32,000 nucleotides of DNA from Candidatus Saccharimonadota bacterium. Lineage in GTDB: Archaea; Nanohalarchaeota; Nanosalinia; Nanosalinales; Nanosalinaceae. Shown piece by piece: positions 2,822 to 28,910 of this stretch. A model generated the notes under the pieces. It saw only the letters and a list, made by a program, of their open reading frames with translations. It did not search any database and was not told the DNA's origin. Positions within the stretch are counted from its first letter, which is position 1. Each line of letters begins with the position of its first letter. The DNA lies in the NCBI GenBank assembly GCA_001761425.1, contig CP012986.1, positions 330,001 through 362,000 on the forward strand, read 5' to 3'. Made by a program: the position numbers and the translations under genes.

Positions 2822-3588
2822 AGGTCGTAGAGAAAGGCGAAGGGAGTCCTGAAATCGCTGTAGTCGCATGTATGCATGGAGATGAAGTCTGTGGGAAGAA
2901 AGCGGTCGACCGTTTCCTTGGAAACGATTTCGAGATCCAGAGACCTGTCAAGTTGATAGTAGCGAATGAAGAAGCGATGGAGGACGAGGAAAGGTCCGTA
3001 AACACTGATCTGAACCGGTGCTTTCCAGGAAATCCGGAGAGCGACAGCCATGAGGAAAGACTGGCTGCTAAGCTGATGGAAGAGCTTGAAGGCCTGAAAA
3101 CTCTCACAATCCACTCCATGGAGGAGTTCGATGAAATGTTTTGCCTCGTCAATACAGTCGATGAAGATCTCATTTCCTCTCCGGGTGTCGAAAAAGCTGT
3201 GGATGTAGTACCACTGGACAAAGACAGTGTAGAGAAATACCTGGATGCTGTATCCGTCGAAGTCGGCGAGATCGGAACCGATCAGGCCTCAAAGAACGCT
3301 TACAAAGTTTTGTTGAACTTCCTGGCATATTTCGATGTTATAGACCGTGAGGAGTCAGAGCAAAGGCCTGAAATCTTCGAGATGTACGAAGCTGTTCCTG
3401 GGGACTACGAGTTCCTGGCTGAGAACTTCGAAAAAGTGGTGGAAGGAGAGAAGTTTGCGGAAAACGGGGAAGAGAAACTCAGAGCTAATGAGAGCTTCTA
3501 CCCGATACTGATGTCCACAGACGGCTACGATGAAATCCTCGGTTTCAAGGGGAGAAAACCTGAAAACGAATTAAAAGGTGAAAGGTGA
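2818..3588 (+). CDS. AstE/AspA-family zinc hydrolase (succinylglutamate desuccinylase/aspartoacylase-like)
   Basis: 256 aa. ACMHGDEVCG (HxxE zinc site), NTDLNRCFPG (D-x-NR-x-FPG) and a later LTIHSM His. A TTG start is needed to retain the conserved N-terminal strand. 4-nt overlap with the upstream ligase gene. Confidence 0.6.
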   Translation: MKVVEKGEGSPEIAVVACMHGDEVCGKKAVDRFLGNDFEIQRPVKLIVANEEAMEDEERSVNTDLNRCFPGNPESDSHEERLAAKLMEELEGLKTLTIHSMEEFDEMFCLVNTVDEDLISSPGVEKAVDVVPLDKDSVEKYLDAVSVEVGEIGTDQASKNAYKVLLNFLAYFDVIDREESEQRPEIFEMYEAVPGDYEFLAENFEKVVEGEKFAENGEEKLRANESFYPILMSTDGYDEILGFKGRKPENELKGER

Positions 3589-4752: not shown

Positions 4753-5562
4753 ATGCTTCCGGAGCTGATTTACAGGGAGGAGCAGGAAGATAATTTCTTT
4801 TTGCTGTTTGCTATGGGCCTAGTCTCTTCTGTTCTAGGTTTTGGCCTTGCTCTACTGGTCTTTCCCTCCCATGTTTCTCTGCTTTCTGTGGTTTTCGCTG
4901 CTATTCCTTTAATGTATCCTCTTACGAGGACTTTTCTGGAGGACGAGAGGGCTGGAAGGCCTCATGTCGACGAAGTACTGATCTACGGGGCTCTCTTCGC
5001 TGGGGAGGTTCTTGGTTTTTTCCTCCTGTCTTTGACCGTATCTTCTCAGGATCTGAACCAGTTCTATCTGCAGATCAGCCATTTCTCTGAAGTTTTGGAG
5101 AAGATGGGAGTGACTATGGTTGGAGGAGCCGATATTTCCGCTTTAACACGTACAGGAGCTACTGGTGCGGCTACTGGAGGCCTTCAACTCCTGGGTATAT
5201 TCTTTAATAATCTTCTTGTTTTCCTGCTGATCTTTGCGGTTTCTGTGCTTGTCAGCTCTGCAGGTGCGTTCATTCTAGTATGGAACGCTTCTGTCCTGGG
5301 AGTATTCCTTGGTATACTGACAAGCAAGCTTCCAGGAATGAAGGTATTGACAGGAACGGAGTCTATACCGAGTCCTGTGGCTTATGTTCCTCATGCAACC
5401 TTTGAGATGACAGGTTTCATCATAGCAGGCATATCAGGATCTCTGGTCTCCGCTGCGATCTACAGACAACATTTTGACAGTGAGACATGGAAAGATTATG
5501 GTAAACTTCTAGGCCTCGGACTTGTATGTATTTTCGTCGGTGCTGTGGTTGAAGGCCTTTGA
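4753..5562 (+). CDS. Polytopic membrane protein, SpoIIM/DUF95-like
   Basis: 269 aa with about 6 hydrophobic spans. The HATFEMTGFIIAG segment resembles the conserved SpoIIM-family helix. A TTAAA-type box lies about 27 nt upstream. Confidence 0.45.
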   Translation: MLPELIYREEQEDNFFLLFAMGLVSSVLGFGLALLVFPSHVSLLSVVFAAIPLMYPLTRTFLEDERAGRPHVDEVLIYGALFAGEVLGFFLLSLTVSSQDLNQFYLQISHFSEVLEKMGVTMVGGADISALTRTGATGAATGGLQLLGIFFNNLLVFLLIFAVSVLVSSAGAFILVWNASVLGVFLGILTSKLPGMKVLTGTESIPSPVAYVPHATFEMTGFIIAGISGSLVSAAIYRQHFDSETWKDYGKLLGLGLVCIFVGAVVEGL

Positions 5563-5568
5563 GTGTTT

Positions 5569-6297
5569 CTAGAAAGCTGTCTGGTTTGGATACGTCACTA
5601 TACCGTTGTTTGTAATCTTCAGTGGGTGTATGTCTGACGAGTGGTCCGTACGGCGCATCTTGAAGACTTCCAGGGTTCTTGTTCTGGAGGATTCGGTTCT
5701 TTCATTTCCCAGGAGCAGGACTCCGTCAGCCACGAACTCTACGATCTGGTACTTTGATACCTGGCGCTCTCCGCCGGTGTAGGGGATCTCGGCCAGCAGG
5801 CATGCCGTACATTCCTGTTCTCTCAAAAACTGGGCGATCTCTGAAACCTTCTCTCTTCTGAGAGGTGAGGAATCGAAGACCATCGCAAACTTGGTGATAG
5901 AGTCAAGAACAACTCTGTCAGGTTCATACTGCTCGATCTGTCTCTTGAAAGCATCGATGAACCTGTCAGGCTCGAATACATCTCCTCCAGAACCTTCACG
6001 CATCAGGTTAAGCTCCTCGTGAAACTTCACGTTGCCAGCGACTCCCTCATCGTTCTCAAAGTCCATGTCAAAGTTCTTGCTTGTCTCAACGATGTTTCTG
6101 GCCGGCTCCTCCAGTGTAAAGTATATTCCTTTATCGTCATGATTCTTCGCGCCGTTATAGAGGAACTGGGTGGTCAAAGTAGTTTTACCTGCTCCAGACG
6201 TCCCGCTGACAACTATAGTATGTTCTTCAGGGATTCCACCGTTCAAAATCTGGTCGAGGCCTTGAACACCGGTCTTACATCTTGGGACTTCTGGCAT
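5569..6297 (-). CDS. KaiC/RecA-like single-domain ATPase (COG0467-type), canonical motifs
   Basis: GVQGLDQILNGGIPEEHTIVVSGTSGAGKTTLTTQFLYNGA (Walker A GxxGxGKT), RVVLDSITKF (Walker B), FKMRRTDHSSDIHPLKITNNGIVTY tail. Confidence 0.8.
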   Translation of the reverse strand: MPEVPRCKTGVQGLDQILNGGIPEEHTIVVSGTSGAGKTTLTTQFLYNGAKNHDDKGIYFTLEEPARNIVETSKNFDMDFENDEGVAGNVKFHEELNLMREGSGGDVFEPDRFIDAFKRQIEQYEPDRVVLDSITKFAMVFDSSPLRREKVSEIAQFLREQECTACLLAEIPYTGGERQVSKYQIVEFVADGVLLLGNERTESSRTRTLEVFKMRRTDHSSDIHPLKITNNGIVTYPNQTAF

Positions 6298-6405
6298 GTA
6301 TAACCCATGTCGTGTCTAAACTATTAAAGCTGGCCTCAAGACCAGGGAGGTTAGATATTATAAACAGCTGAATATCATTAATTCACATAGAGGTAAATCA
6401 AAAAC

Positions 6406-7098
6406 ATGGCAGGCGACAGAGTAAGCACAGGAGTTGAAGGCCTTGACGGGGCCATGGAAGGAGGTTTTCCCGCAAACTCTACAGTAATTCTAATGGGTTC
6501 TGACGGCACAGGAAAGGAATCGCTTGTCAACAAGTTCGTGTATCAAGGCCTTGAGGAAGGAGAGGAATCGATGTATGTCACTCTTGACGGTTCTCCTGAT
6601 GATGTAAAGGATGATGCAGATTACTACGGATGGGATTTCACAGACCACGACGACAGAATCGTATTCGTAGACGGCTACTCCTGGCAGGCAGGGGGAAGCG
6701 ATGAACAGTTCGCACTCGACGGTCTCTCGGACCTTAACCAGATGAACATGACATTTACAGACGCTTTGAACGCGCTTGGAAATGAGTCCAAACGTGTGGC
6801 CATCCATTCGGCTTCCACACTACTTCTCTATACAGATCCGAAATCCGCTGTAAAGTTCCTTCAGGTTGTCGGTGCGAAGAGTTCAAGCTCTGGTGGTTGC
6901 CTGGTAATCACTCTGGAAGAAGGGATGCACGATGAGAAGACAGTTAACACAATAAAACACGTTGCAGATGGAGTGATCAAGACCAAGCTGGATGGAGACG
7001 ACAAAAAACTTTCAATACAGAGGATGGACAAGACAGACACCAGCAGAGACTGGAAAGACTTCGAAGTAGATGATTCAGGAGACATAACAGTTTCTTAG
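6406..7098 (+). CDS. KaiC/RecA-like domain protein with degenerate Walker A and B (probable pseudo-ATPase)
   Basis: GVEGLDGAMEGGFPANSTVILMGSDGTGKESLVNKFVYQGL has Glu in place of the Walker A Ser/Thr (GKE). RVAIHSAST has His where the Walker B Asp is expected. A KaiC-like tail is present (SIQRMDKTDTSRDWKDFEVDDSGDITV). Confidence 0.7.
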   Translation: MAGDRVSTGVEGLDGAMEGGFPANSTVILMGSDGTGKESLVNKFVYQGLEEGEESMYVTLDGSPDDVKDDADYYGWDFTDHDDRIVFVDGYSWQAGGSDEQFALDGLSDLNQMNMTFTDALNALGNESKRVAIHSASTLLLYTDPKSAVKFLQVVGAKSSSSGGCLVITLEEGMHDEKTVNTIKHVADGVIKTKLDGDDKKLSIQRMDKTDTSRDWKDFEVDDSGDITVS

Positions 7099-7203
7099 GA
7101 AAAGAAAGAAGTAAAGAATCTTCTGGACAGTTTAAGCAGCTTTTTCAGGCCTTTTACAGGCGTTACTAAGGTTAAAAATTCTTTCTGTTTGTTTTGAAGT
7201 AGA

Positions 7204-7211
7204 TTTATAAA
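7204..7211 (+). promoter_or_regulatory. TATA-like box (TTTATAAA) for the KaiC-like/GTPase fusion gene
   Basis: Centre lies about 27 nt upstream of ATG 7234 with no purine-rich SD between, consistent with a leaderless archaeal mRNA. Confidence 0.45.
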
Positions 7212-7233
7212 CCAGAGAAACTTAGTTGTGATT

Positions 7234-8397
7234 ATGTCTAAGGTTAAGCTGCCACTTGAGAGACTTAATGAGGCCCTGGATGGAGGAGTAGAGGAAGGTT
7301 CCAACGTTCTTATACTAGCAGATCTGGCTGTAGACAAGTCAAAGTTCGCTTCTGCACTTGTTAACTACAGGCTAGATGAAGATGACAACCTGGTCTACTT
7401 CGTTAACAACAGGATGCCACAGTATATCAATGAGAGGATAGATAGTGAAAGAGCTGACGGTGAGACAGCTGTAATCGATGGATTCTCTTCAACACTGAAT
7501 AAAGAGTCAGAGGAAAGATTCAAGATCGATAAGGATCTCAAGGCAGACAGATCAGAATACCTCCAAGAATCCAAGGAAACAACAAAAGAGGCCTTGGAGG
7601 AGCTGGAGGACTGGGGAACAACCTACGTAATGGATTCTCTGGACACGTTCGCAGGTCAGTGGGAAGAAGTAGAGGACTTCGTAGACGAAATAGGTCCTGT
7701 AGCAGAAGATACTCTGGCAGTAAACTACTACTTCCTTCCAAACCTCGGATTCGAGGAAGACGACGATATAGAAAGACTGAAAGAAATATTCGACTACGTA
7801 ATACATCTCAAAGGCCTTGAAAGGTCGGGAATCGTACTAAAGTATATCGATATCAGAAAACCGGATATTGAGACAAAAGTTCCTTTCGACATCACACCGG
7901 AAGGCCTTGTCATGTATGTGCCTAAGATGCTTGTAACCGGGCCTTACGATGCAGGAAAATCTACCACTGTACAGAATATGTCTGAGGAGGCAGTATCTGT
8001 GGACAGACTTGGAACCACTGTCTCTCTGGATCATGGACAGGTCGAGAGAAATGGCCTGAAAGCTGAACTGTTCGGTACACCCGGCCAGAAACGTTTCGAC
8101 TGGGCGCTTGATTTCCTCGGCAGAAGCATCTTCGGATGTTTCATTGTAGTGGATTCCAGGGATCCTAACTATGAGAGAGTCCGGAAGCTGAAAGAGGATC
8201 TGGAGGCTGAGGAGTTACCGTTCATCATACTTGCCAACTTCCAGAACAAGGATGATGCCCTGTCTCCTGATGAAATCCAGGACGAGCTGAGTATCAAAAC
8301 AGTCGGAATCGATGCCAAACACGATGAAGGCCTTGATCAGGCACTCCAGTCGCTTATGGAGGAAATCCTGAGCAGGCATTCGTGGTATTACACATAG
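7234..8397 (+). CDS. Fusion protein: degenerate KaiC-like domain plus MglA/CvnD-type (COG2229-like) small GTPase
   Basis: N-terminal ~230 aa have a KaiC-like layout (LNEALDGGVEEGSNVLILADLAVDKSKF, TYVMDSLDTF, LKYIDIRKPD...FDITPEGLVMY) but no GK[ST]. The C-terminal ~155 aa (from ATG 7927) form a GTPase with G1 GPYDAGKST, G3 FGTPGQ (Thr instead of Asp, as in MglA-type GTPases) and G4 NKDD. ATG 7234 preferred over GTG 7228. Confidence 0.7.
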   Translation: MSKVKLPLERLNEALDGGVEEGSNVLILADLAVDKSKFASALVNYRLDEDDNLVYFVNNRMPQYINERIDSERADGETAVIDGFSSTLNKESEERFKIDKDLKADRSEYLQESKETTKEALEELEDWGTTYVMDSLDTFAGQWEEVEDFVDEIGPVAEDTLAVNYYFLPNLGFEEDDDIERLKEIFDYVIHLKGLERSGIVLKYIDIRKPDIETKVPFDITPEGLVMYVPKMLVTGPYDAGKSTTVQNMSEEAVSVDRLGTTVSLDHGQVERNGLKAELFGTPGQKRFDWALDFLGRSIFGCFIVVDSRDPNYERVRKLKEDLEAEELPFIILANFQNKDDALSPDEIQDELSIKTVGIDAKHDEGLDQALQSLMEEILSRHSWYYT

Positions 8398-8451
8398 GTG
8401 GGAAAAATGAAACTCTTTAAAAAATATCAAGACCTAATACAGGTATAGAAC

Positions 8452-8817
8452 ATGTCAAGTAAAGAGGAAAAGTTAAATGAGCCGTTGGATGATCTGGACA
8501 GTGTCCAGGGGATTAAAGGAGCTGCTGTTGTCAGAAGAGATGGTTTACTGATCGCATCAAATCTTGGCCAGGACATTGATGATGATCAGGTTGGTGCGAT
8601 GACAGCATCCACGGTAGGATCAGGAGAAACCGCCAGCGAAGCATTAAGCATGGGAGATGTTGATCAGGTTACTGTAGAATCAGACAACGGCAAACTCATT
8701 GCTACAGGTGCAGGAGACGAAGGAATACTCGCAATACTAACAGAAAGCGACGTCAACATGGGCCTTATCAAGGTTGAAATGAGCGACGCAGTGGACAAAG
8801 TCAAAAAAGTCCTGTAA
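8452..8817 (+). CDS. Roadblock/LC7 (MglB-like) domain protein
   Basis: 121 aa. GIKGAAVVRRDGLLIASNL...GAMTASTVGSGE...VTVESDNGKLIATGAGDEGILAILTE fits the Roadblock/LC7 pattern. Lies directly downstream of the GTPase gene. Confidence 0.8.
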   Translation: MSSKEEKLNEPLDDLDSVQGIKGAAVVRRDGLLIASNLGQDIDDDQVGAMTASTVGSGETASEALSMGDVDQVTVESDNGKLIATGAGDEGILAILTESDVNMGLIKVEMSDAVDKVKKVL

Positions 8818-8847
8818 AGACTATCTTCTCACTTTGTTATCAATTAG

Positions 8848-8855
8848 TTATAAAA
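8848..8855 (+). promoter_or_regulatory. TATA-like box (TTATAAAA) for the divergent PaaK-like gene
   Basis: About 28 nt upstream of ATG 8879. Supports the shorter start. Confidence 0.4.
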
Positions 8856-8878
8856 TTATTTTTATCCAGGTTTTTAAC

Positions 8879-10129
8879 ATGTCTGTATTCTCTCGGCCGT
8901 ATGAATCTCTAGAAGGCCTGAGAAATGAGCTTGAAGATAGAAGTCTTCTAGACTACATGGTGGAAAATACACGGGGAGATGTAGAGGTTCCGTACAAAAA
9001 TAATAATTTGGATGAGGAGGCCTATGTTCAGGCGGTAATGGATATTCATTTTGATGAGGATTACGGTACTCCGTACTGGCTAGAGCACGCTAACAGGCTT
9101 GATTTCGATCCCAGAGAAGAGATCGATTCTTTCCAGGATCTTTCAAAGCTCGGCGTTGCAGATGAAGAGGCGCTCGTAGAGAGGCCTGTAGAGGATTTCA
9201 TGCCCCGATTATTCTCTAGAAACTTAGAAGAAGCGGACAATTACAGTGAACTTGTCCCAGATTCATCTGCTTATGATATGTCTAAGTCATCAGGTTCAAC
9301 GGGGAAGAAAAAGGTGATGCCCTGGAGAAAACATCTTTCAGATGAAGTATCGGACTGGTACAATTTCAACTTTGAATTAAGAGATATAGATGGAGGCAAC
9401 TGGCTGATCGCAGGCCCTCCAGGCCTTTACGAGAAACAGATTAGATCTGCCGCTGAGAAGAGAGGAGGATTCCCTTTATTCAGTGGGATAGAGACAAGAA
9501 GGCTTAAACCTCAGCTTAAACAGCTTGGCAGGCTAAGTGAGGAGCCTTATAGCTTCCTCAAAGACTCTGTAACGGAGCCAGGTAATATCAAAGAGGCTCT
9601 GGAAGGCCTTGTAAGGATGAAATATACTTTACGGGCGATGGAGGAGGATCTACAGTCTGAGGAGGTGGGTGTTATCGCGAGCGCGCCGGAGCCTGTTGAA
9701 CGAGTGCACGGGATGCTGGAGTCGGATGATGCCCGTTCTACGCCTGAAGATGTCAACGCATTGCTGATGAGTGGTATGGGGACGACACAGGAGACTGTAG
9801 ATAGATTGGAACAGAAATACCCTAATGCGGAAGCAATCCCGATGTATGCCACATCGTTTACGGGAGCAAACTTTGACAACCCCAAAAGTGATGACTTTGA
9901 ATATCATTCAATACATCCGTTCATCAGTTTTGATGTAGTAGAATCTGAAGGAACAGGGCTTGGAGATACTGTGGACTATGGGGAAAGAGGACAGGTCGTG
10001 CTCAACCATCTCTCTTCAGGGTTCCTCTGGCCTAACCAGACAGAAAGAGAGACAGCAGAGAGAAGGTTTCCAGCAGAACTATTTGGGGGAGGCGACGGGA
10101 TAGCTGATATAAGGCCTCTGTCTGACTAG
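8879..10129 (+). CDS. Divergent adenylate-forming enzyme, PaaK/coenzyme F390 synthetase-like
   Basis: N-terminal region parallels PaaK (YGTPYWLEHANRLDFDPREEIDSFQDLSKLGVADEEAL). P-loop-like SKSSGSTGKKKVMPW. MYATSFTG occupies the position of YGxTE. ATG 8879 preferred over the track's TTG 8834 because TTATAAAA lies 28 nt upstream. Confidence 0.5.
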   Translation: MSVFSRPYESLEGLRNELEDRSLLDYMVENTRGDVEVPYKNNNLDEEAYVQAVMDIHFDEDYGTPYWLEHANRLDFDPREEIDSFQDLSKLGVADEEALVERPVEDFMPRLFSRNLEEADNYSELVPDSSAYDMSKSSGSTGKKKVMPWRKHLSDEVSDWYNFNFELRDIDGGNWLIAGPPGLYEKQIRSAAEKRGGFPLFSGIETRRLKPQLKQLGRLSEEPYSFLKDSVTEPGNIKEALEGLVRMKYTLRAMEEDLQSEEVGVIASAPEPVERVHGMLESDDARSTPEDVNALLMSGMGTTQETVDRLEQKYPNAEAIPMYATSFTGANFDNPKSDDFEYHSIHPFISFDVVESEGTGLGDTVDYGERGQVVLNHLSSGFLWPNQTERETAERRFPAELFGGGDGIADIRPLSD

Positions 10130-10695
10130 ATGTTCTGTACACTTCGAAGCTGTTTTCTAATTGATCTGACATCAGGATGAACGTACTGAAGAATGTAGTT
10201 GTATCCCCAGACAAAACTTCTGTCGAGGTCATGTTTTAGCTCAGAGCTCTGAAGTTCCTCCCATGTTTCTTCCCCAAATTCAGATTTATCATGGTAATCT
10301 GTAGTGTGAGGTCCGTACGTAGGGTCTGCTACTATCCACTCTCCGTCAACTTTTATCTGTACAGGACCGTGGATAGAGCTTTCGGTCTCACCCTTGATCT
10401 TATTCTCCATCCTGCAGTTGATTAAAAATATTCTGGCAGGGATATCAAGAGAACGCAGGAGAGAAATCAGCAAGTTCGACTTGCTGAAACTCATAGCTTT
10501 ACTATTTTCCCTACCTAACAGGGCCTCAGAGCTCTCGATACTTCTCATATCCCAGCAGTAATTATCTCTAACCCACTCAAAAAGTTCTCTGGCAGACTTC
10601 TCCTTATCTTCTTCGTCGCTCACGATCCCTGCTGCCTTACTCCTAGTTCTCTCATTTACCGAGATCAGGTATCCAGAACCTCTGAATTCTGACAT
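10126..10695 (-). CDS. Transglutaminase-like (papain-fold) domain protein, nucleophile position Ser
   Basis: ELFEWVRDNYCWD...SKAMSFSKSNLLISLLRSLDIPARIF...SIHGPVQIKVDGEWIVADPTYG matches the transglutaminase-core order (nucleophile ... IPAR ... H ... W..DPT). ATG 10695 preferred over TTG 10701. The stop overlaps the stop of the convergent gene (CTAG 10126-10129). Confidence 0.55.
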   Translation of the reverse strand: MSEFRGSGYLISVNERTRSKAAGIVSDEEDKEKSARELFEWVRDNYCWDMRSIESSEALLGRENSKAMSFSKSNLLISLLRSLDIPARIFLINCRMENKIKGETESSIHGPVQIKVDGEWIVADPTYGPHTTDYHDKSEFGEETWEELQSSELKHDLDRSFVWGYNYILQYVHPDVRSIRKQLRSVQNI

Positions 10696-10715
10696 ATTCA
10701 AAGACTAAAACTGCA

Positions 10716-10753
10716 GAAATTAAAGTCTTCCCTGAACTCCCAAATATTATTTA
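10716..10753. promoter_or_regulatory. Divergent promoter region with two TATA-like boxes
   Basis: AATATTATTTA (10743-10753) lies about 29 nt upstream of ATG 10777 on the plus strand. CTTTAATTTC (complement of 10716-10725) lies about 26 nt upstream of ATG 10695 on the minus strand. Confidence 0.4.
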
Positions 10754-10776
10754 CTATTTGGGTACAAATCCCTGAT

Positions 10777-12219
10777 ATGCCTTTCCGGAGTACTGTAGCT
10801 TCATACTTTGAGGATCTGGCAAAAATACTTGATGGAGAAGATGAGCAACAGAGAATGGTCAGAGAAGGCCTTTCCCCAGGCATGACTGAAGAAGAGTTAA
10901 GCGAGTACCGGGACAGAAGAGTTTCTGAGCACATTAATCATGCGTATAACAATACTGATTTTTACAGAAATCTCCTTGATGAGGAAAATATAGATCCGGA
11001 GGAAATCCAGACAGTTGAGGACCTTTCCAGGATTCCTCCTACTACTGGAGAGGATCTTGAGCAGGCAGATATGGATTTCCCTGATTATCCGTTCCTAGCA
11101 ACAGGATGGGATGAAGTCGCAAGGGTCAATGAGAGTTCAGGTACCGGCGGAGGAGATCCGAAACAGCAGATGATGAGCTATGAAGATATGGAGAGGAACG
11201 GTCTTGAACAGGCGAGAATTTACGGCGGGGAGCTTGGTATCGATGAATCTGATACTGTACTACAGCTTCTGCCTTTCAGCCTTAATACCTCTGGTTTTAC
11301 AGGTTACAAGGGGGCTGAGGCTATTGACGCTACTCAGCTGACTGCTGGTGTTATGGTCCCTCCTGAGAAGCATGCTCAGCTGGTTGATGAATACCAACCT
11401 GAAGCAATCATCGCGCTTCCATCCTATGCCAATCGGTTTACAGATGTTCTTGAGCAACAAGGCATAGATCCGGCAGATTCATCTATAGAAAACGTGATCG
11501 TAGGAGGAGAGGCCTTCACAGATAAGCAACTGAGCATGATGGAGGATAAGTACGATGCCAGGGTAACACAGGCCTATGGCATGACAGAGGCAGGAGGAAT
11601 TACAGGCGGAGAAGTAGAAATAGGAAACGGCATGCATCTTCTGGAAGACAATTTTATCTTCGAGATAGTGGATCCTAAAACCTATGAGCCTGTAGAGGAT
11701 GGAGAAATCGGCGAAGTACTGTTTACACCTGTAGGGAGAGATGCAATGCCTCTGATAAGGTACGCACCTAGAGATTTCTCTCGTTTCAGGACTGATGAGG
11801 ATGTTATTAGTACTCCTTTTAGCAGGATCGATACTCCCTGGAGGAAACACAATGTAGCCGATATTGAAGGAGTTGAGATCTATCCAGGGAAAGTGGGGGA
11901 TAAGATACTGGATATAGACGAAGAGCTTAAGAGAGAACACGGCATCAACGGAGAGTTCAAGATCACCCTGGACTACGAAGAGGATGAGAGCCAGTACCAG
12001 ATGGATATAGAAGTTGAAGGAGATAGAAGAACTGAAATGGTAGAAAATGAGATGAAAGGATCTCTCTTCGAAATACTGGAGTTCAGCTCGATAGACTCAC
12101 AGACCGTGGCGGACATAAATGTAGATGTTGTGCCAAAAGGTGAACTCCAGACAAAGGGCAAGGCCGAGAGAATAGAGCTAACTGACGACTACAGAGAGTT
12201 TAAAGGAATGGAACTCTAA
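10777..12219 (+). CDS. Phenylacetate-CoA ligase/coenzyme F390 synthetase-like adenylate-forming enzyme
   Basis: NTDFYRNLLDEENIDPEEIQTVEDLSRIPPTTGEDL, NESSGTGGGDPKQQMMSY (variant of SSGTTGKPK), AYGMTEAGG (YGxTE), IRYAPRDFS (RYRTRD-like). Confidence 0.75.
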   Translation: MPFRSTVASYFEDLAKILDGEDEQQRMVREGLSPGMTEEELSEYRDRRVSEHINHAYNNTDFYRNLLDEENIDPEEIQTVEDLSRIPPTTGEDLEQADMDFPDYPFLATGWDEVARVNESSGTGGGDPKQQMMSYEDMERNGLEQARIYGGELGIDESDTVLQLLPFSLNTSGFTGYKGAEAIDATQLTAGVMVPPEKHAQLVDEYQPEAIIALPSYANRFTDVLEQQGIDPADSSIENVIVGGEAFTDKQLSMMEDKYDARVTQAYGMTEAGGITGGEVEIGNGMHLLEDNFIFEIVDPKTYEPVEDGEIGEVLFTPVGRDAMPLIRYAPRDFSRFRTDEDVISTPFSRIDTPWRKHNVADIEGVEIYPGKVGDKILDIDEELKREHGINGEFKITLDYEEDESQYQMDIEVEGDRRTEMVENEMKGSLFEILEFSSIDSQTVADINVDVVPKGELQTKGKAERIELTDDYREFKGMEL

Positions 12220-12229
12220 TTTAACTTAG

Positions 12230-12772
12230 ATGGCAAACGAGTTCTTCGGAAGACTGATGGACACCGGCGAATTCAGGTTCAATGAAAATGGGATTCTATT
12301 CTACTTCGGAGCACCAACAATGCTCTTCAACATTAATACTATGGTTTCGCTTCAGAAAGACCTAGAAGAAAAAAATGTAGCGGAGGAATCCCTCAAAAAA
12401 GTCGGAGGAAACCAATCAAGAAGAGCCCTGAAACGATACGAGGACAGATATAACTTCGATGAACTCAGCAGAAACGAGATAATGAAGTTCATAGACGATC
12501 TCACAGATGTAATCGCGCTCGGCGAATTCACAATAAGCAAGATGGACCAGAAAGAGGATATAGTATACGCCATAGAGAACAGGACCAATCCAATCGCCAG
12601 AGTCTACAGAAAAGAATATGGGGAAGCAGATTCACCAAGAGATTTCTTCCTCCAAGGCCTGATAGAGAAAGGCCTTGACGCACTTGAAAGTAAAGATCTT
12701 GAAGTAGAAGAAAAAGAATGCATGGCCAAGGGAGACGACAGATGCCTCTTTGTAGCAAGACCTAAAGACTGA
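12230..12772 (+). CDS. V4R (4-vinyl reductase-type) small-molecule-binding domain protein
   Basis: 180 aa. The C-terminal FFLQGLIEKGLDALESKDLEVEEKECMAKGDDRCLFVARPKD carries the paired-Cys V4R signature (C-x-A-x-GD-x-x-C-x-F). Starts 10 nt after the PaaK-like gene. Confidence 0.6.
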   Translation: MANEFFGRLMDTGEFRFNENGILFYFGAPTMLFNINTMVSLQKDLEEKNVAEESLKKVGGNQSRRALKRYEDRYNFDELSRNEIMKFIDDLTDVIALGEFTISKMDQKEDIVYAIENRTNPIARVYRKEYGEADSPRDFFLQGLIEKGLDALESKDLEVEEKECMAKGDDRCLFVARPKD

Positions 12773-13445
12773 GGCCTTTCTCAGGCTCCTTTACCTTAAG
12801 ACCGTTTTCATCTATCTCGACAGGATATACATCGTGCTCAAAGTTCGTCCTCCTCATCTTCTGGACTGTAAGCTTTCTGCCCATGTCTCCGCCAAAGCCG
12901 AGGCCTTTCATGATAAATACTCCGTCCACCACGTACTCTTCGACTCCATAACGAGTCAGGTTATCTTCATCAGGCTTCTCAGTAGTGAACAAAGTAGTAA
13001 CTTCTTCGCCCTTCATCTGCTTGATGATCTCGTAAAGCTCCTTTCTCACCTCTCCAGGAGCATTAGAATCCAGCCCCATACCGATCATGGAAACAGGGTC
13101 TATAACCACTCTGTCCGGGTTATGCTCGTTAATATATCCCCGCACATTGCTATCAAAGGTGAAGTCCTCTGTGAACGGATTGATGTACTCTATGGAAAAT
13201 CTTTCCTCATCCCTAAAACTCCAGCCGAACTCGTCTGCATCGCCAAGAATATCCTCCTCGTCCTCTTCCAAAGTAATGAAAAGACATCTCTCCCCTTTCT
13301 GAAGACCTTCCCACAGGAACTGACTCGAAAAAATAGTTTTACCCATTCCAGCACTACCGGAAATCAGAATAGTAGAGCCTTCAGGCACTCCTCCTTCAAT
13401 CAGTTCATCAAGGCCCTCCACGCCTGTAGAAATTCTCTCAGTCAT
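12762..13445 (-). CDS. KaiC/RecA-like single-domain ATPase, canonical motifs
   Basis: GVEGLDELIEGGVPEGSTILISGSAGMGKTIFSSQFLWEGL (Walker A), RVVIDPVSMIG (Walker B), VQKMRRTNFEHDVYPVEIDENGLKV. ATG 13445 preferred over TTG 13454. The 3' end overlaps the V4R gene's 3' end by 11 nt. Confidence 0.8.
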   Translation of the reverse strand: MTERISTGVEGLDELIEGGVPEGSTILISGSAGMGKTIFSSQFLWEGLQKGERCLFITLEEDEEDILGDADEFGWSFRDEERFSIEYINPFTEDFTFDSNVRGYINEHNPDRVVIDPVSMIGMGLDSNAPGEVRKELYEIIKQMKGEEVTTLFTTEKPDEDNLTRYGVEEYVVDGVFIMKGLGFGGDMGRKLTVQKMRRTNFEHDVYPVEIDENGLKVKEPEKGLSL

Positions 13446-13470
13446 AAGAAACAATTCCCTTTCCCTGAAT

Positions 13471-13505
13471 AAAAGATTATACCGAAGACAATCTCAATTA
13501 TTTAA
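13471..13505. promoter_or_regulatory. Divergent promoter region (KaiC-like gene and pheS)
   Basis: ATTATTTAA (13497-13505) lies 28 nt upstream of GTG 13529. TATAATCTTTT (complement of 13471-13481) lies about 32 nt upstream of ATG 13445. Confidence 0.4.
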
Positions 13506-13528
13506 GATTCCAACTCAGATAATTTTCT

Positions 13529-14941
13529 GTGAAGCTTTCAAGCCAGGCACTGGAAGTACTGAAGATTCTAAGAGAGCAGGGAGCACAGACAGTACAGGAT
13601 TTTGAGGAAAAAGGCCTTGACCAGTCAATGGTCAACCGTGCCGCACTGGAACTGGAGAAACAGGATCTAATTGAGAAGGAAGAGGACGAAAAATTAGAAT
13701 ACGTACTTACAGAGAAAGGCCTTGAGGTCAAGAAGAGAGGATCACCGGAGTACAGACTGGTACAGAAGGCCTCGGACGGTTCCGTGGAGATCGCAGAGCT
13801 GAACGAGATCCCTAAAGATGTCGCGATTGGAAAAGCCAGGGAAAGAGGCTGGATCGAGATTAGAGAAGGAAAAACACATCTGACCCCAGAAGGAGAGGAA
13901 ATCAGAGACGACCCTGTAAAACAGAGGCTTCAGGAGCAGGATTTCACGGAGGAACATGAAGACAGAGGCCTTGTAGAGATCGAAACAGATACTAAGAGAA
14001 GGCTTTCTCTTACGAGCGATGGTGAAGGCCTTGATCTGGAAGCTGTTGAGCTTGATTTTAATGTTGAAGCCCAGACTTCTACTCCGAAGACGGGAAAGAA
14101 ACATTACTACAAGAATATTCTTCAGTACGCACGTCAGACCTGGATGGAGATGGGTTTCGAGGAGATGGAGGGTGATTACGTTGTTCCGAGCTTCCTGAAC
14201 TTCGATGCCCTGTATACGCCTCAGGACCATCCGGCACGGGAGCTTCATGATACTTTCTTCGTGGAGAATCCTGAGAAGGCGGACCTGTCCGAGTACGGCG
14301 ATAAAGTCGAACACGTGAAAAAGACTCATGAGGCTGGCTGGAGTACAGGTTCTCGTGGCTACGGAGGTGACTGGAGCAAACAGGAAGCAGAGAGAAACGT
14401 ACTGAGAACACATACTACAGCGATTTCGGCGATGACTCTGCATGAAATCGATATTAATGATGAGGAACTGCCGAAGAAGTTCTTTATAGTCGGCAGAAAC
14501 TTCAGGAACGAAACCGTCGATCGTACACACCTCGCAGAGTTCTACCAGACTGACGGAATCGTGGTCGGAAAGGATCTCAACTTCGCCAATCTGAAAGGAT
14601 ACATCTCCAAGTTCTTCGAGAAAATGGGATACGAAAAATTCCGTTTGATACCCTCATACTATCCGTACACAGAAATGAGCGTAGAGGTACAGGTCTGGGA
14701 CGAGGAAGACGAGGAATGGCTCGGCATGGGAGGAGCAGGAATGTTCCGCCCAGAAGTCGTCAAACCGATGCTCGGCTTCGAAGCCAAAGTCCTTGCATGG
14801 GGCCTTGGAATCCCACGGATCGCATTCATGGCAGCAGGCCTCTCGGACATCAGAGAACTGTACAGGAACGACATCAAAATCATAAACGAGACACCGGTCT
14901 GGAGACCGGACTGGAAAACAGCAAGAGGCGAAAAGAAATGA
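13529..14941 (+). CDS. pheS: Phenylalanine--tRNA ligase alpha subunit (archaeal)
   Basis: N-terminal winged-helix repeats followed by a class II core: FDALYTPQDHPARELHDTFF, LRTHTTA, FIVGRNFRNE, FYQTDG, GAGMFRPEV, AWGLGIPRIAF. The GTG start has ATTATTTAA 28 nt upstream. Confidence 0.9.
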   Translation: MKLSSQALEVLKILREQGAQTVQDFEEKGLDQSMVNRAALELEKQDLIEKEEDEKLEYVLTEKGLEVKKRGSPEYRLVQKASDGSVEIAELNEIPKDVAIGKARERGWIEIREGKTHLTPEGEEIRDDPVKQRLQEQDFTEEHEDRGLVEIETDTKRRLSLTSDGEGLDLEAVELDFNVEAQTSTPKTGKKHYYKNILQYARQTWMEMGFEEMEGDYVVPSFLNFDALYTPQDHPARELHDTFFVENPEKADLSEYGDKVEHVKKTHEAGWSTGSRGYGGDWSKQEAERNVLRTHTTAISAMTLHEIDINDEELPKKFFIVGRNFRNETVDRTHLAEFYQTDGIVVGKDLNFANLKGYISKFFEKMGYEKFRLIPSYYPYTEMSVEVQVWDEEDEEWLGMGGAGMFRPEVVKPMLGFEAKVLAWGLGIPRIAFMAAGLSDIRELYRNDIKIINETPVWRPDWKTARGEKK

Positions 14942-14989
14942 CGAAAAAAAGTTTCCCAAATGACCGAACCACAGAGGCGATTCAGTAAA

Positions 14990-28886: not shown

Positions 28887-28910
28887 AATAAAGAAAAATT
28901 TCACAGGGCT

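What the first reader, a model, noticed from the sequence alone, without database searches (positions are those of the whole stretch)
5569..13454. NTPase-switch island: four KaiC-like domains, an MglA/CvnD-type GTPase, Roadblock, two adenylating enzymes, a transglutaminase-like protein and V4R
Seen: nine consecutive genes with short spacers.

- KaiC-like ATPase, canonical (5569-6297, minus strand).
- KaiC-like protein with degenerate motifs (6406-7098).
- Degenerate KaiC-like domain fused to a small GTPase (7234-8397).
- Roadblock/LC7 protein (8452-8817).
- Divergent PaaK-like enzyme (8879-10129).
- Transglutaminase-like protein (10126-10695, minus strand).
- PaaK-like enzyme (10777-12219).
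- V4R protein (12230-12772).
- KaiC-like ATPase, canonical (12762-13445, minus strand).

Established: Roadblock/LC7 (MglB-type) proteins regulate MglA-type small GTPases in Myxococcus polarity. Streptomyces 'conservons' combine a Roadblock protein (CvnB) and a COG2229 GTPase (CvnD) with a sensor kinase. KaiC-like ATPases act as autophosphorylating switches. V4R is a predicted small-molecule-binding domain. PaaK/F390-type enzymes adenylate carboxylates.

Inference: this looks like a conservon-style GTPase switch in which the sensor kinase is replaced by active and pseudo KaiC-like modules. It appears coupled to a ligand branch made of the adenylating enzymes and the V4R sensor. I do not recognise this combination as a described system. 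Function is unknown; candidates are polarity, surface-structure or attachment control.
Basis: partly seen in the sequence, partly recalled or inferred. Interest (0 to 1): 0.8.

Follow-up and report, generated by a model that had tools for sequence, protein, structure and literature searches.

The report
Archaeal KaiC–GTPase–Roadblock switch plus sensor cassette
The nine genes are real, but they are two units: an old, widespread and uncharacterised archaeal switch (a small GTPase fused to a dead KaiC ATPase, with its Roadblock partner and KaiC relatives), and next to it a movable five-gene cassette found only in some salt-loving nano-archaea.

Summary
All nine ORFs and all domain calls were confirmed. 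The window comes from Nanohaloarchaea archaeon SG9.

The "island" is two juxtaposed modules.

- **Module A (5569-8817).** It holds an active KaiC, an inactivated KaiC (iKaiC), an iKaiC fused to an MglA-type GTPase (G3 motif GTPGQ), and a Roadblock protein. It is conserved far beyond this genome. In 32 distant metagenomic loci with adequate flanks, Roadblock lies within 1 kb of the fusion gene in 31, and a KaiC-family gene within 3 kb in 31. The module also occurs in Methanothermobacter and Methanoperedens. Different lineages carry a sensor gene inside it: PAS, V4R or DUF7793.
- **Module B (8879-13454).** It holds an EhpF-like and a PaaK-like adenylating enzyme, a Ser-variant transglutaminase-like protein, V4R, and a second active KaiC. 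It is a separate, patchily distributed Nanohaloarchaea cassette.

Module B sits in a strain-variable slot between Roadblock and PheRS-alpha. That slot is empty in six sister genomes. It holds a different KaiC plus V4R-like cargo in relatives whose fusion protein is 94-95% identical. Elsewhere the same cassette lies beside type-IV-pilus genes and giant surface proteins.

The single nine-gene system is not. The likely function is an NTPase switch with ligand input that controls surface or attachment structures; this is inferred, not shown.

The parts
4753..5562 (+). SpoIIM-like polytopic membrane protein. It is syntenic with module A throughout Nanohaloarchaea. A functional link is not shown.
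   Evidence: Pfam SpoIIM 1.9e-9. It lies next to KaiC1 in L001-L004, L009, L010, L012, L014-L017 and L026. It is within 4 kb of the fusion gene in only 1 of 32 distant loci.
5569..6297 (-). Module A: active-type single-domain KaiC-like ATPase (KaiC1), transcribed divergently from the iKaiC gene.
   Evidence: PF06745 7.5e-58. Walker A, catalytic EE and Walker B are intact. Orthologues of 67-93% identity occupy the same position in sister genomes.
6406..7098 (+). Module A: stand-alone inactivated KaiC (iKaiC, DUF7504 type).
   Evidence: PF06745 3.2e-29 and DUF7504 3.6e-12. GKE, LDG and IHS replace the catalytic motifs. An iKaiC-type gene lies within 2 kb of the fusion gene in 30 of 32 distant loci.
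7234..8397 (+). Module A: fusion of an inactivated KaiC domain (residues ~1-225) with an MglA-type small GTPase domain (residues ~226-387). An alternative GTG start lies at 7228.
   Evidence: In alignment A2 the Walker A site carries D before K where the K is retained (VDKSKF in the window), and LEE is replaced by VNN or a similar non-acidic triplet; no fusion protein in the locus census has a canonical Walker A there. G1 is GPYDAGKS, G2 LGTT, G3 FGTPGQ. G4 is N-F-Q-N here and NKQD in non-Nanohaloarchaea. The protein is 100% identical to the NCBI protein AQV86_01880 of Nanohaloarchaea archaeon SG9.
8452..8817 (+). Module A: Roadblock/LC7 (MglB-like) protein, presumed regulator of the GTPase domain.
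   Evidence: PF03259 1.9e-18. The RRDGL Asp-Gly pair is conserved. A Roadblock gene lies within 1 kb of the fusion gene in 31 of 32 distant loci.
8879..10129 (+). Module B: EhpF-like single-domain ANL (adenylate-forming) protein that lacks the C-terminal subdomain.
   Evidence: A family profile hits PDB EhpF (3l2k/3hgu) at 1.8e-35. The SSGTTGKKK P-loop motif is conserved, and YATSF stands in place of YGxTE. Only 23 homologues were found, all but one of Nanohaloarchaea type.
10126..10695 (-). Module B: transglutaminase-like protein with Ser in place of the catalytic Cys.
   Evidence: PF01841 2.9e-10. Ser69, His109 and Asp124 are invariant in three orthologues. Ser69 lies 12 residues before the Arg of LLRSxxIPAR, where the family Cys is expected (the position was inferred from the family motif, not from a printed HMM alignment).
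10777..12219 (+). Module B: two-domain PaaK/F390-synthetase-like adenylating enzyme, probably active.
   Evidence: AMP-binding 1e-16. PaaK and F390 models give 5e-60 to 1e-45 but below their cut-offs. Residues at the positions I assign from memory of ANL motifs to A3, A5, A7 and A10 (SG..G.PK, TE, D, GK) are invariant in five orthologues.
12230..12772 (+). Module B: stand-alone V4R ligand-binding protein.
   Evidence: PF02830 2.2e-9. A full-length profile hits MJ1460 (2osd) at 2.4e-12 and the phenol-sensor domains of MopR, PoxR and CapR at 2e-8 to 1e-3. The C-terminal ExxC...C.F motif is invariant.
12762..13445 (-). Module B: second active-type KaiC (KaiC4), convergent with and overlapping the V4R gene by 11 bp.
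   Evidence: PF06745 7.2e-57. It is 54-59% identical to the KaiC that ends the same cassette in L023, L024 and L025. It is 43% identical to the KaiC that fills the same slot in L012.
13529..16636 (+). PheRS alpha and beta genes, the conserved right-hand boundary of the variable slot.
   Evidence: tblastn synteny shows that Roadblock is followed directly by PheRS-alpha in L002, L003, L008, L009, L010 and L026.

Best explanation
Two units lie side by side.

**Module A (5569-8817)** is an ancient archaeal NTPase-switch module. An MglA-type small GTPase is covalently tethered to a catalytically dead KaiC domain. It is encoded with its Roadblock/MglB-type partner, a stand-alone dead KaiC and an active KaiC ATPase.

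Proposed working (inferred):
- The dead KaiC domains act as assembly or docking subunits. They join or bind the ring of the active KaiC, as the KaiC-like ArlH docks on the archaellum ATPase ArlI.
- The ATP or autophosphorylation state of the active KaiC decides whether the tethered GTPase is presented.
- The Roadblock dimer acts as GAP, and possibly as exchange platform, for the GTPase.
- Lineage-specific sensor proteins slotted into the module (PAS, V4R, DUF7793) supply the input.
- In Nanohaloarchaea the likely output is the type-IV-pilus-like surface and attachment apparatus.

**Module B (8879-13454)** is a separate, accessory Nanohaloarchaea cassette parked in a strain-variable slot between Roadblock and PheRS-alpha. 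Two adenylating enzymes (EhpF-like and PaaK-like) and a Ser-His-Asp transglutaminase-like protein make or modify an acyl or aromatic carboxylate. The V4R protein binds it. The cassette's own KaiC transduces the signal.

**Shown:** gene content, motifs, conservation and modularity. **Inferred:** every protein-protein contact, the ligand and the output.
For: **Domain and motif calls:**

**Core conservation**
- Of 32 metagenomic loci with the fusion gene (27-36% identity to the window protein apart from one Nanohaloarchaea locus at 71%) and at least 1.5 kb on both flanks, Roadblock is within 1 kb in 31 and an iKaiC-type gene within 2 kb in 30.
- A KaiC-family gene is within 3 kb in 31. In 19 a KaiC-family gene with an intact Walker A is there, and in 21 one with a degenerate Walker A.
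- No fusion N-domain (0 of 83) has a Walker A at the proper site.
- The same operon occurs in Methanothermobacter (Robl, fusion, KaiC-family, KaiC-family, TPR) and in Methanoperedens (iKaiC, fusion, Robl).

**Variable sensor slot**
- A multi-PAS protein lies next to the module in 14 loci; in L045 it sits between Robl and iKaiC.
- V4R lies inside or next to the module in L018, L019, L044, L086 and L012/L014.

**MglA-type signature:** GTPGQ and Thr-Thr, matched against PMC4316618.

**Modularity of block B**
- The slot is empty in six sister genomes.
- It holds a different cargo in relatives with 94-95% identical fusion proteins.
- The cassette is intact between ribosomal-protein operons in L024. 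In L023 and L025 (the latter lacking the transglutaminase-like gene) it lies beside T2SSE/T2SSF pilus genes, a KaiC/iKaiC pair and a protein of more than 3,400 aa.
- The window iKaiC is 50-53% identical to the pilus-locus iKaiC.

**Ligand theme:** the V4R profile matches phenol-sensor domains, EhpF acts in phenazine-carboxylate chemistry (my knowledge of the PDB entry), and PaaK-family enzymes act on aryl acids.

**Precedents read here:** ArlH autophosphorylation controls its binding to ArlI, and the KaiC-like CirA represses motility (PMC10983859). MglA and SofG control type-IV-pilus ATPases (PMC4316618).
Against: - No experiment exists on any member, and no interaction was modelled.
- Each spacer longer than 50 bp has its own TATA-like element, so the genes need not be co-transcribed.
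- An active KaiC is within 3 kb in only 19 of 32 distant loci, so the 'active ring' step is not universal.
- The pilus link rests on two contigs from other Nanohaloarchaea, not on this genome. This window has no pilus genes.
- The Nanohaloarchaea GTPase has a remodelled base-recognition site (NFQN instead of NKQD). It may not be a GTPase in the strict sense.
- The EhpF-like protein lacks the C-terminal subdomain and has altered core motifs, so it may not adenylate anything.
- The catalytic Cys of the transglutaminase-like protein is replaced by Ser.
Confidence: 0.6

Rival explanations
1. All nine genes form one integrated system, in which the adenylating enzymes and V4R are the dedicated ligand branch of the KaiC/GTPase/Roadblock switch.
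For: - In a distant DPANN contig (L019) an EhpF-like gene (28% identity), a PaaK-like gene and a V4R gene lie 5.4 kb downstream of fusion-Robl-DUF7793-V4R-V4R.
- V4R is recurrently linked to the module.
- In relatives with 94-95% identical fusion proteins, the same slot again holds a KaiC4-type KaiC plus a V4R-like gene.
Against: - The slot is empty in six sister genomes.
- None of 32 distant loci has EhpF-like, PaaK-like or TGase-like genes within 8 kb.
- The cassette stands alone or next to pilus genes in L023-L025.
- EhpF-like homologues number 23 clusters, against about 100 Nanohaloarchaea-type fusion clusters.
- In L019 four opposite-strand genes separate the two blocks.
Confidence: 0.2
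2. Module B is not a sensor branch. It is a small tailoring or biosynthetic cluster that acylates or otherwise modifies a cell-surface component (pilin, giant adhesin or lipid). KaiC4 and V4R act as its local regulator. Its position next to module A is an accident of insertion into a permissive intergenic site.
For: - In two divergent lineages the cassette lies between pilus-machinery genes and a surface-type protein of more than 3,400 aa, which carries Laminin_G_3 and Big_3_3 hits in L023.
- It combines two ANL enzymes with a transglutaminase-fold protein, a typical ligase plus amide/ester-handling pair.
- In L024 it sits between ribosomal-protein operons with no signalling genes nearby.
- No flanking repeats or integrase were found, and the site is a hot spot with alternative cargo.
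Against: - No carrier protein, transporter or glycosyl/acyl-transferase lies in the cassette.
- V4R domains are best known as effector-binding sensors.
- The alternative cargo in the same slot again contains KaiC plus a V4R-like gene but no ANL enzymes. This points to KaiC and V4R, not the enzymes, as the constant part.
Confidence: 0.25
3. Module B, or the whole variable slot, is an anti-virus defence island. This would explain its strain-level variability and its NTPase plus protease-fold content.
For: Cargo varies at strain level at one chromosomal site. The content includes P-loop NTPases and a peptidase-fold protein.
Against: - A PADLOC scan of all nine proteins and of the L012 cargo protein gave only weak generic P-loop hits to mad8, with E values from 2e-6 to 3e-4.
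- There are no nuclease, methylase or abortive-infection domains.
- The cassette is syntenic with pilus genes in other lineages.
Confidence: 0.05

Closest known systems
MglA/MglB polarity switch (Myxococcus, Thermus) and the MglA family groups 2-5 of Wuichet & Sogaard-Andersen 2015 (PMC4316618)
   Same: - It is a Ras-like GTPase with no Asp in G3 (GTPGQ) and Thr-Thr in G2, encoded next to a Roadblock/MglB-type protein that carries the Asp-Gly pair.
- It lacks the bacterial insertion between G1 and G2, as described for archaeal members.
   Different: - The GTPase is not a single-domain protein. It is fused to an inactivated KaiC domain.
- It is always accompanied by KaiC-family genes.
- In Nanohaloarchaea the G4 motif is NFQN, not NKxD.
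- The 2015 survey considered only single-domain GTPases and reported no conserved neighbours for archaeal group 4.
- NCBIfam gives only the generic small_GTP domain for the GTPase. The Roadblock protein scores 16 bits against the MglB equivalog cut-off of 200.
Actinobacterial conservon (CvnA-D; Mfp in mycobacteria)
   Same: A Roadblock protein (CvnB-like) is paired with a GTPGQ-type GTPase (CvnD-like) in a signalling operon whose output is thought to be the GTPase itself.
   Different: There is no CvnA-type sensor histidine kinase and no CvnC/DUF742 protein in the nine genes or the flanking 32 kb. KaiC-family proteins occupy that place. The carriers are archaeal, not actinobacterial.
Archaeal KaiC-like 'signal transduction hubs' (Makarova, Galperin & Koonin 2017, mBio; ArlH and CirA as studied examples)
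   Same: The proteins are single-domain KaiC/RecA-fold ATPases together with inactivated KaiC homologues (iKaiC). They are linked to variable input domains and, in other Nanohaloarchaea, embedded in type-IV-pilus loci.
   Different: The 2017 paper is not in the held library, so I could not check whether it lists the iKaiC-GTPase fusion or the Roadblock link. No searchable paper mentions KaiC together with MglA or MglB. This is not a circadian KaiABC system: the KaiC proteins are single-domain, and no KaiA or KaiB is present in the window.
Eukaryotic TRAPP and Ragulator-type GTPase regulator platforms, and their Asgard homologues (PMC10933270; Podar et al. 2008, PMC2253512)
   Same: The same three folds occur together: a small GTPase, Roadblock (a fold related to longin) and V4R, the prokaryotic relative of Bet3/TRAPPC3.
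   Different: - Here the three are linked by gene order in several archaeal lineages. In the Asgard archaeon MK-D1, by contrast, small-GTPase genes are reported as generally not in operons with Roadblock, longin or TRAPPC3 genes.
- No longin domain was found.
- The V4R here resembles ligand-sensor V4R (MJ1460, MopR) rather than TRAPPC3.
- GEF activity is untested.
EhpF (Pantoea agglomerans, PDB 3l2k/3hgu) and PaaK/F390-synthetase-type ANL enzymes
   Same: 8879-10129 aligns over its whole length with EhpF, a truncated ANL enzyme without the C-terminal subdomain. 10777-12219 keeps invariant residues at the positions I take to be the ANL core motifs.
   Different: The archaeal context has no phenazine or phenylacetate pathway genes. 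PaaK equivalog cut-offs are not reached. In the EhpF-like protein, YATSF replaces YGxTE and RGQ stands where I expect the ribose-binding Asp motif.

Membership tests
MglA family, groups 2-5 (Wuichet & Sogaard-Andersen 2015) | G3 motif GTPGQ, lacking the Asp conserved in all other GTPases | tested here: met
   FGTPGQ in the window protein. F280, G281, P283 and G284 are invariant in 53 sequences; T282 and Q285 are nearly invariant (at least 90%), with GSPGQ and GTPGE as the variants. The definition was read in PMC4316618.
MglA family, groups 2-5 (Wuichet & Sogaard-Andersen 2015) | Thr, not the intrinsic Arg finger, next to the conserved G2 Thr | tested here: met
   LGTTV, with T261 and T262 invariant.
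MglA family, groups 2-5 (Wuichet & Sogaard-Andersen 2015) | Single-domain protein of about 160-200 aa | tested here: not met
   The protein has 387 aa, with a KaiC-fold N-terminal domain of about 225 aa. Single-domain relatives of 160-250 aa exist as the next-closest proteins.
MglA family, groups 2-5 (Wuichet & Sogaard-Andersen 2015) | Canonical guanine-specificity motif [NT]KxD (G4) | tested here: not met
   The window and all 35 Nanohaloarchaea-type sequences have N-F-Q-N. The 18 outgroup sequences have NKQD.
MglA family, groups 2-5 (Wuichet & Sogaard-Andersen 2015) | Coupled MglB/Roadblock gene with a conserved Asp-Gly pair | tested here: met
   The Robl gene starts 54 bp downstream. RRDGL is conserved, with KEGL in Methanothermobacter. 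Robl lies within 1 kb in 31 of 32 loci.
MglA family, groups 2-5 (Wuichet & Sogaard-Andersen 2015) | Roadblock partner stimulates GTP hydrolysis (GAP) | not testable with these tools
   This needs biochemistry.
Actinobacterial conservon (CvnABCD) | CvnA-type membrane sensor histidine kinase in the operon | tested here: not met
   No HisKA or HATPase_c hit appeared in any of the 29 window proteins scanned.
Actinobacterial conservon (CvnABCD) | CvnC (DUF742) protein | tested here: not met
   No DUF742 hit was found.
Actinobacterial conservon (CvnABCD) | Roadblock (CvnB) plus GTPGQ GTPase (CvnD) pair | tested here: met
Archaeal KaiC-like ATPase (PF06745, single RecA-fold domain) | Match to PF06745 above the gathering score | tested here: met
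   Scores are 196, 102 and 193 bits against a cut-off of 26.6 for 5569-6297, 6406-7098 and 12762-13445. The fusion N-domain matches only by profile (PH0284, 8e-18) and by fold.
Archaeal KaiC-like ATPase (PF06745, single RecA-fold domain) | Walker A GxxxxGK[ST], catalytic Glu pair and Walker B Asp (an active enzyme) | tested here: met
   Met for KaiC1 and KaiC4. Not met for 6406-7098 or for the N-domain of 7234-8397, which are inactivated.
Archaeal KaiC-like ATPase (PF06745, single RecA-fold domain) | Hexamer formation and autophosphorylation | not testable with these tools
   This needs biochemistry or multimer modelling.
Cyanobacterial KaiABC clock | Double-domain KaiC (CI and CII) with KaiB, with or without KaiA | tested here: not met
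   All KaiC proteins here are single-domain. Scores of 153-154 bits fall below the circadian KaiC equivalog cut-off of 408. No KaiB-like or KaiA-like gene lies in the window.
TRAPP-like GTPase exchange platform | A Bet3/V4R-fold subunit encoded with a longin/Roadblock-fold subunit and a small GTPase | tested here: inconclusive
   All three are present in the window, but V4R is in the accessory cassette. V4R lies inside or next to the GTPase module in L018, L019, L044, L086 and L012/L014. It is within 5 kb in only 2 of 32 loci of the unbiased set.
TRAPP-like GTPase exchange platform | Nucleotide-exchange activity of the complex | not testable with these tools
   This needs biochemistry.
Phenylacetate-CoA ligase PaaK / coenzyme F390 synthetase | Score above the equivalog cut-off | tested here: not met
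   203 bits against 700 (haloarchaeal PaaK), 185 against 646 (PaaK) and 156 against 459 (F390). The protein is an ANL-superfamily member only.
Transglutaminase-like cysteine peptidase (PF01841) | Cys-His-Asp catalytic triad | tested here: not met
   His109 and Asp124 are present, but Ser69 occupies the Cys position in all three orthologues. The position was inferred from the family motif.

The most novel reading that the evidence does not exclude
The recurrent gene-order linkage of an MglA-type small GTPase, a Roadblock protein and a V4R (Bet3/TRAPPC3-fold) protein was seen in several DPANN and other archaeal lineages. It may mark a prokaryotic Roadblock/V4R platform that acts as exchange factor or GAP for the GTPase. 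That would be a pre-eukaryotic relative of TRAPP/Ragulator-type regulators, wired here into a KaiC ATPase ring. In Nanohaloarchaea the GTPase would in addition have changed its nucleotide specificity (NKxD to NFxN, with an Asp appearing in G5).
Probability: 0.1. Interest if true: 0.85.

Novelty: new variant of a known kind. Interest (0 to 1): 0.55.

Why it matters
- **An untested regulatory circuit.** Archaea are thought to rely on KaiC-like ATPases for much of their signalling, yet almost none of these circuits has been worked out. This module physically joins a dead KaiC to a Ras-like GTPase and always travels with a Roadblock protein. It therefore offers a concrete, testable circuit that links two kinds of NTPase switch.
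- **Tractable and relevant carriers.** The module is present in genetically or biochemically approachable methanogens. It is also present in host-dependent nano-archaea, where control of pili and attachment is central to their way of life.
- **Ready-made partner assignments.** The operon linkage of GTPase, Roadblock and (in some lineages) V4R gives matched partner sets. Work on Asgard archaea says such sets are hard to assign from genome layout.
- **Strain-level variation.** The variable KaiC plus V4R cargo in one chromosomal slot suggests a way for closely related nano-archaeal strains to differ in what they sense.

Tried and rejected
- **The 2017 KaiC paper.** I tried to read Makarova et al. 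2017 (mBio) by DOI, PMC id and PubMed id. It is not held, so prior description of the iKaiC-GTPase fusion could not be checked.
- **Literature searches.** Searches for KaiC with Roadblock, MglA, MglB or Nanohaloarchaea, and for V4R with PaaK, F390 or EhpF, found nothing describing this module. One search was wasted on too loose a term.
- **Insertion scars.** A search for repeats or insertion scars flanking the cassette found only chance-level short matches.
- **Promoter and terminator scan.** The bacterial scan is not informative for an archaeon, with 8 hits against 13 expected. Spacers were inspected by eye instead.
- **Defence-system reading.** Rejected after the PADLOC scan.
- **MglA equivalog membership.** NCBIfam returns only the generic small_GTP domain. 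This is a lead only; the motif test against the published definition was used instead.
- **Transglutaminase-like profile.** It found no solved relative by sequence.
- **Walker A regex.** A first count seemed to show 11 active fusion N-domains. Inspection showed these were the upstream GGIPxGK motif, not the P-loop.
- **Genes downstream of Roadblock in L005 and L011.** They proved to be housekeeping genes (Nre, metallo-beta-lactamase fold).

Full report
**1. What is there**

The window is from Nanohaloarchaea archaeon SG9. The 387-aa product of 7234-8397 is 100% identical to NCBI protein AQV86_01880, which lies on a 1.125-Mb contig.

Refinements to the domain calls:
- Two KaiC proteins (5569-6297 and 12762-13445) keep Walker A, the catalytic Glu pair and Walker B.
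- Two KaiC domains are inactivated: 6406-7098 and the N-terminal half of 7234-8397.
- The N-domain of the fusion protein is recognised as KaiC-like only by profile (PH0284, 8e-18) and by fold. The AlphaFold2 model has pLDDT 85, and Foldseek places PH0284 on top with TM 0.78.
- The 'divergent PaaK-like' protein is a full-length homologue of EhpF (1.8e-35). EhpF is a truncated ANL enzyme without the C-terminal subdomain.
- The transglutaminase-like protein has Ser where the family's catalytic Cys is expected, with His and Asp retained.
- The PaaK-like enzyme keeps invariant residues at the positions I take to be the ANL core motifs, but it is not a PaaK equivalog.
- The V4R protein matches, over its full length, the phenol-sensor domains of MopR, PoxR and CapR as well as MJ1460.

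**2. The GTPase type**

Profile searches against solved structures place Arf/Arl proteins on top, at about 1e-14. NCBIfam gives only the generic small-GTPase domain.

The published definition of the MglA family is nevertheless met (PMC4316618, read). Groups 2-5, which include the conservon GTPase CvnD and the archaeal group 4, share GTPGQ in G3 and Thr instead of the Arg finger in G2. Both motifs are present in the window protein and conserved across 53 family members (FGxPG and T261/T262 invariant; two minor G3 variants). The bacterial insertion between G1 and G2 is absent. The Roadblock protein carries the Asp-Gly pair reported for the matching MglB proteins.

One thing was not foreseen. All 35 Nanohaloarchaea-type sequences have N-F-Q-N in place of NKQD in G4. 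At the same time they have Asp in G5 where the 18 outgroup sequences, which keep NKQD, have Thr, Ser or Val. This is a lineage-wide remodelling of the base-recognition site.

**3. Conservation: the island is two modules**

*Comparison within Nanohaloarchaea.* Eleven species-representative genomes, contigs carrying near-identical proteins and one metagenome contig (L026) share a conserved order:

TrpRS – SpoIIM-like – KaiC1(-) – iKaiC – fusion – Robl – [slot] – PheRS-alpha – PheRS-beta – PspC – NDK

- In L002, L003, L008, L009, L010 and L026, Robl is followed directly by PheRS-alpha.
- In L012 and L014, whose fusion proteins are 94-95% identical to SG9's, the slot holds three genes. They are a KaiC only 43% identical to KaiC4, a weak V4R (Pfam 4.9e-4) and an unknown 292-aa protein.
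- In SG9 the slot holds the five genes 8879-13454.

*The five-gene block elsewhere.* The block is itself conserved as a unit at other sites:
- In L024 it lies between ribosomal-protein operons.
- In L023 it follows T2SSF-T2SSF-KaiC-iKaiC-T2SSE and precedes a protein of more than 3,596 aa.
- In L025 it lies in the same pilus context, without the transglutaminase-like gene.
- Only 23 homologue clusters of the EhpF-like protein exist, against about a hundred Nanohaloarchaea-type fusion clusters. The cassette is therefore accessory.

**4. The core is ancient and widespread**

A scan of metagenome contigs with the family profile found at least 359 relatives, and 80 loci were fetched. The counts below are for the 32 loci that carry a full fusion gene with at least 1.5 kb on both flanks.

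| Feature near the fusion gene | Loci (of 32) |
|---|---|
| Roadblock within 1 kb | 31 |
| iKaiC-type gene within 2 kb | 30 |
| KaiC-family gene within 3 kb | 31 |
| KaiC-family gene with intact Walker A within 3 kb | 19 |
| KaiC-family gene with degenerate Walker A within 3 kb | 21 |
| V4R within 5 kb | 2 |
| EhpF-like, PaaK-like, TGase-like or T2SSE within 8 kb | 0 |

Further points:
- None of 83 fusion proteins has a Walker A at the proper site in its N-domain.
- A profile search that returned source names shows the family in Candidatus Methanoperedens, Methanobacteriales and Methanothermobacter.
- The Methanothermobacter operon is Robl – fusion – KaiC-family – KaiC-family – TPR. In Methanoperedens it is iKaiC – fusion – Robl.
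- In the 1.84-billion-protein representative library, 141 clusters score at or below 1e-30. About a hundred of them are full-length fusions. The next-closest proteins are single-domain GTPases.

**5. A variable sensor position**

- A multi-PAS protein of about 530 aa lies next to the module in 14 loci; in L045 it sits between Robl and iKaiC.
- V4R follows Robl in L018 and L086.
- V4R sits between the fusion gene and Robl in L044.
- V4R follows two DUF7793 genes and one unannotated gene after Robl in L019.
- V4R accompanies the KaiC in the SG9-type slot.

The constant part is thus GTPase-iKaiC, Robl and one or more KaiC-family proteins. The variable part looks like an input.

**6. How it probably works (inferred)**

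- By analogy with MglA/MglB, the Roadblock dimer regulates the nucleotide state of the tethered GTPase.
- The KaiC-like ArlH binds the archaellum ATPase ArlI depending on its own phosphorylation, and the KaiC-like CirA represses motility (PMC10983859). By analogy, the active KaiC supplies an ATP-dependent state change. The dead KaiC domains are docking or ring subunits that couple this state to the GTPase.
- In Nanohaloarchaea the output is most plausibly the type-IV-pilus-like apparatus. A KaiC/iKaiC pair, whose iKaiC is 50-53% identical to the window's, is embedded in pilus loci next to cassette B. MglA-family GTPases are known to position pilus ATPases in bacteria.
- Cassette B combines two adenylating enzymes of aryl-acid-type families, a transglutaminase-fold protein with a Ser-His-Asp set, a V4R of the effector-sensing kind, and its own KaiC. 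I read it as a ligand-making or ligand-modifying and sensing unit that feeds a KaiC.
- A rival reading is that cassette B tailors a surface component.
- None of these steps is shown.

**7. Comparison with what is known**

- The module works like an MglA/MglB or conservon switch. It fails single-domain membership, lacks CvnA and CvnC, and in this lineage lacks NKxD.
- It belongs to the KaiC-hub concept of Makarova et al. 2017. That paper could not be read here, and the module occurs in long-sequenced genomes, so the core is very likely catalogued in arCOGs.
- No paper in the searchable library mentions KaiC together with MglA or MglB.
- The 2015 survey of prokaryotic small GTPases excluded multidomain proteins and found no conserved neighbours for archaeal MglA.
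- The 2024 structural study of Asgard GTPase, Roadblock and TRAPPC3 proteins states that in MK-D1 such genes are generally not in operons, which makes partner assignment difficult. The operons described here supply such assignments, and in a few lineages they include V4R, the Bet3 relative.

**8. Verdict**

A KaiC-based GTPase/Roadblock switch is supported. A single nine-gene system is not.
- The finding is a new variant of known kinds: an uncharacterised, conserved iKaiC-MglA fusion module, plus a Nanohaloarchaea-specific KaiC/V4R/adenylation cassette in a strain-variable slot.
- Interest is moderate (0.55). The main uncertainty is how much of the core was already described in 2017.

Noticed in passing
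window 8236-8247 (N335-N338) and 8311-8316 (D360-A361) of gene 7234-8397: All 35 Nanohaloarchaea-type fusion proteins have G4 = N-F-Q-N instead of NKQD. They also have Asp in G5, where the 18 outgroup sequences (which keep NKQD) have Thr, Ser or Val. This co-varying, lineage-wide change of the guanine-recognition site hints at altered nucleotide specificity. The outgroup locus L028 shows NKAN.
   Followed up: partly
L001, L006, L013, L015, L016, L017, L022 (3' ends), aligned to window 8398-8510: Seven independent assemblies end within about 115 bp after the stop codon of the fusion gene. Of the four whose ends were aligned, three (L001, L006, L015) stop 28-57 nt into the Roadblock gene and one (L016) in the spacer. 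One of the contigs is 54 kb long. This suggests a repeat or strong strain variation that starts at Robl. L021 has two 100% identical Robl copies. The pattern is unexplained.
   Followed up: partly
window 13529-16636; L057, L066, L071, L075, L076, L079: PheRS-alpha lies next to the fusion/Robl module in Nanohaloarchaea. It also does so in a distant group of six loci whose ORF translations look GC-rich, where it is on the opposite strand upstream. This could be chance or a retained ancient linkage; I could not tell.
   Followed up: no
L023:10700-17222 and L025:14052-21245: Giant ORFs of more than 3,596 and more than 3,400 aa, both running off the locus, directly follow cassette B. The L023 protein has Laminin_G_3 and Big_3_3 hits. 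They are probably surface or adhesion proteins of the kind known in nano-archaea.
   Followed up: no
window 18277-20145 vs L012:18714-21170: The HerA-like DUF87 ATPase is 622 aa in SG9. The protein at the syntenic position in a closely related contig is longer than 1,139 aa and carries Intein_splicing and LAGLIDADG hits, which indicates intein presence/absence polymorphism between strains.
   Followed up: no
window 1406-2821 and 2818-3588: Two overlapping genes encode a GCS2-type carboxylate-amine ligase (weak hit, 2.4e-6) and an AstE/AspA-type deacylase (1.2e-13). This is a ligase/hydrolase pair of unknown substrate. The region differs in close relatives, where L012 has an acetyltransferase and an MR_MLE enzyme instead.
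   Followed up: no
window 26286-28904 (-): A PEP-utilising enzyme of the PPDK/PEP-synthase type (872 aa) carries a C-terminal winged-helix DUF2582 domain (1.7e-12). This is an unusual fusion of a central-metabolism enzyme with a DNA-binding-type domain.
   Followed up: no
L021:5181-10530: A distant contig (fusion protein P0119, 34% identical; P0119 carries no source name, and the neighbouring hit P0120 is labelled Micrarchaeota) has an expanded module: fusion, Robl, iKaiC, Robl (an identical copy), a 77-aa gene, a Robl-like gene and KaiC. It is followed by an IS605 OrfB/TnpB gene.
   Followed up: no
L045:4372-5964 and 13 other loci (L028, L041-L043, L047, L053, L055, L056, L062, L064, L069, L073, L081): A multi-PAS protein of about 530 aa lies within 4 kb of the fusion gene in 14 loci, and in L045 sits between Robl and iKaiC. 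It is a likely sensor component of the module in those lineages. The PAS assignment is from sequence inspection only.
   Followed up: partly
window 6298-6405, 7099-7233, 8398-8451, 8818-8878, 10696-10776, 13446-13528: Each of these intergenic spacers is AT-rich (23-35% GC) and contains a TATA-like element shortly upstream of the next start codon. The genes may each have their own promoter, possibly with leaderless transcripts, so operon status is open.
   Followed up: partly
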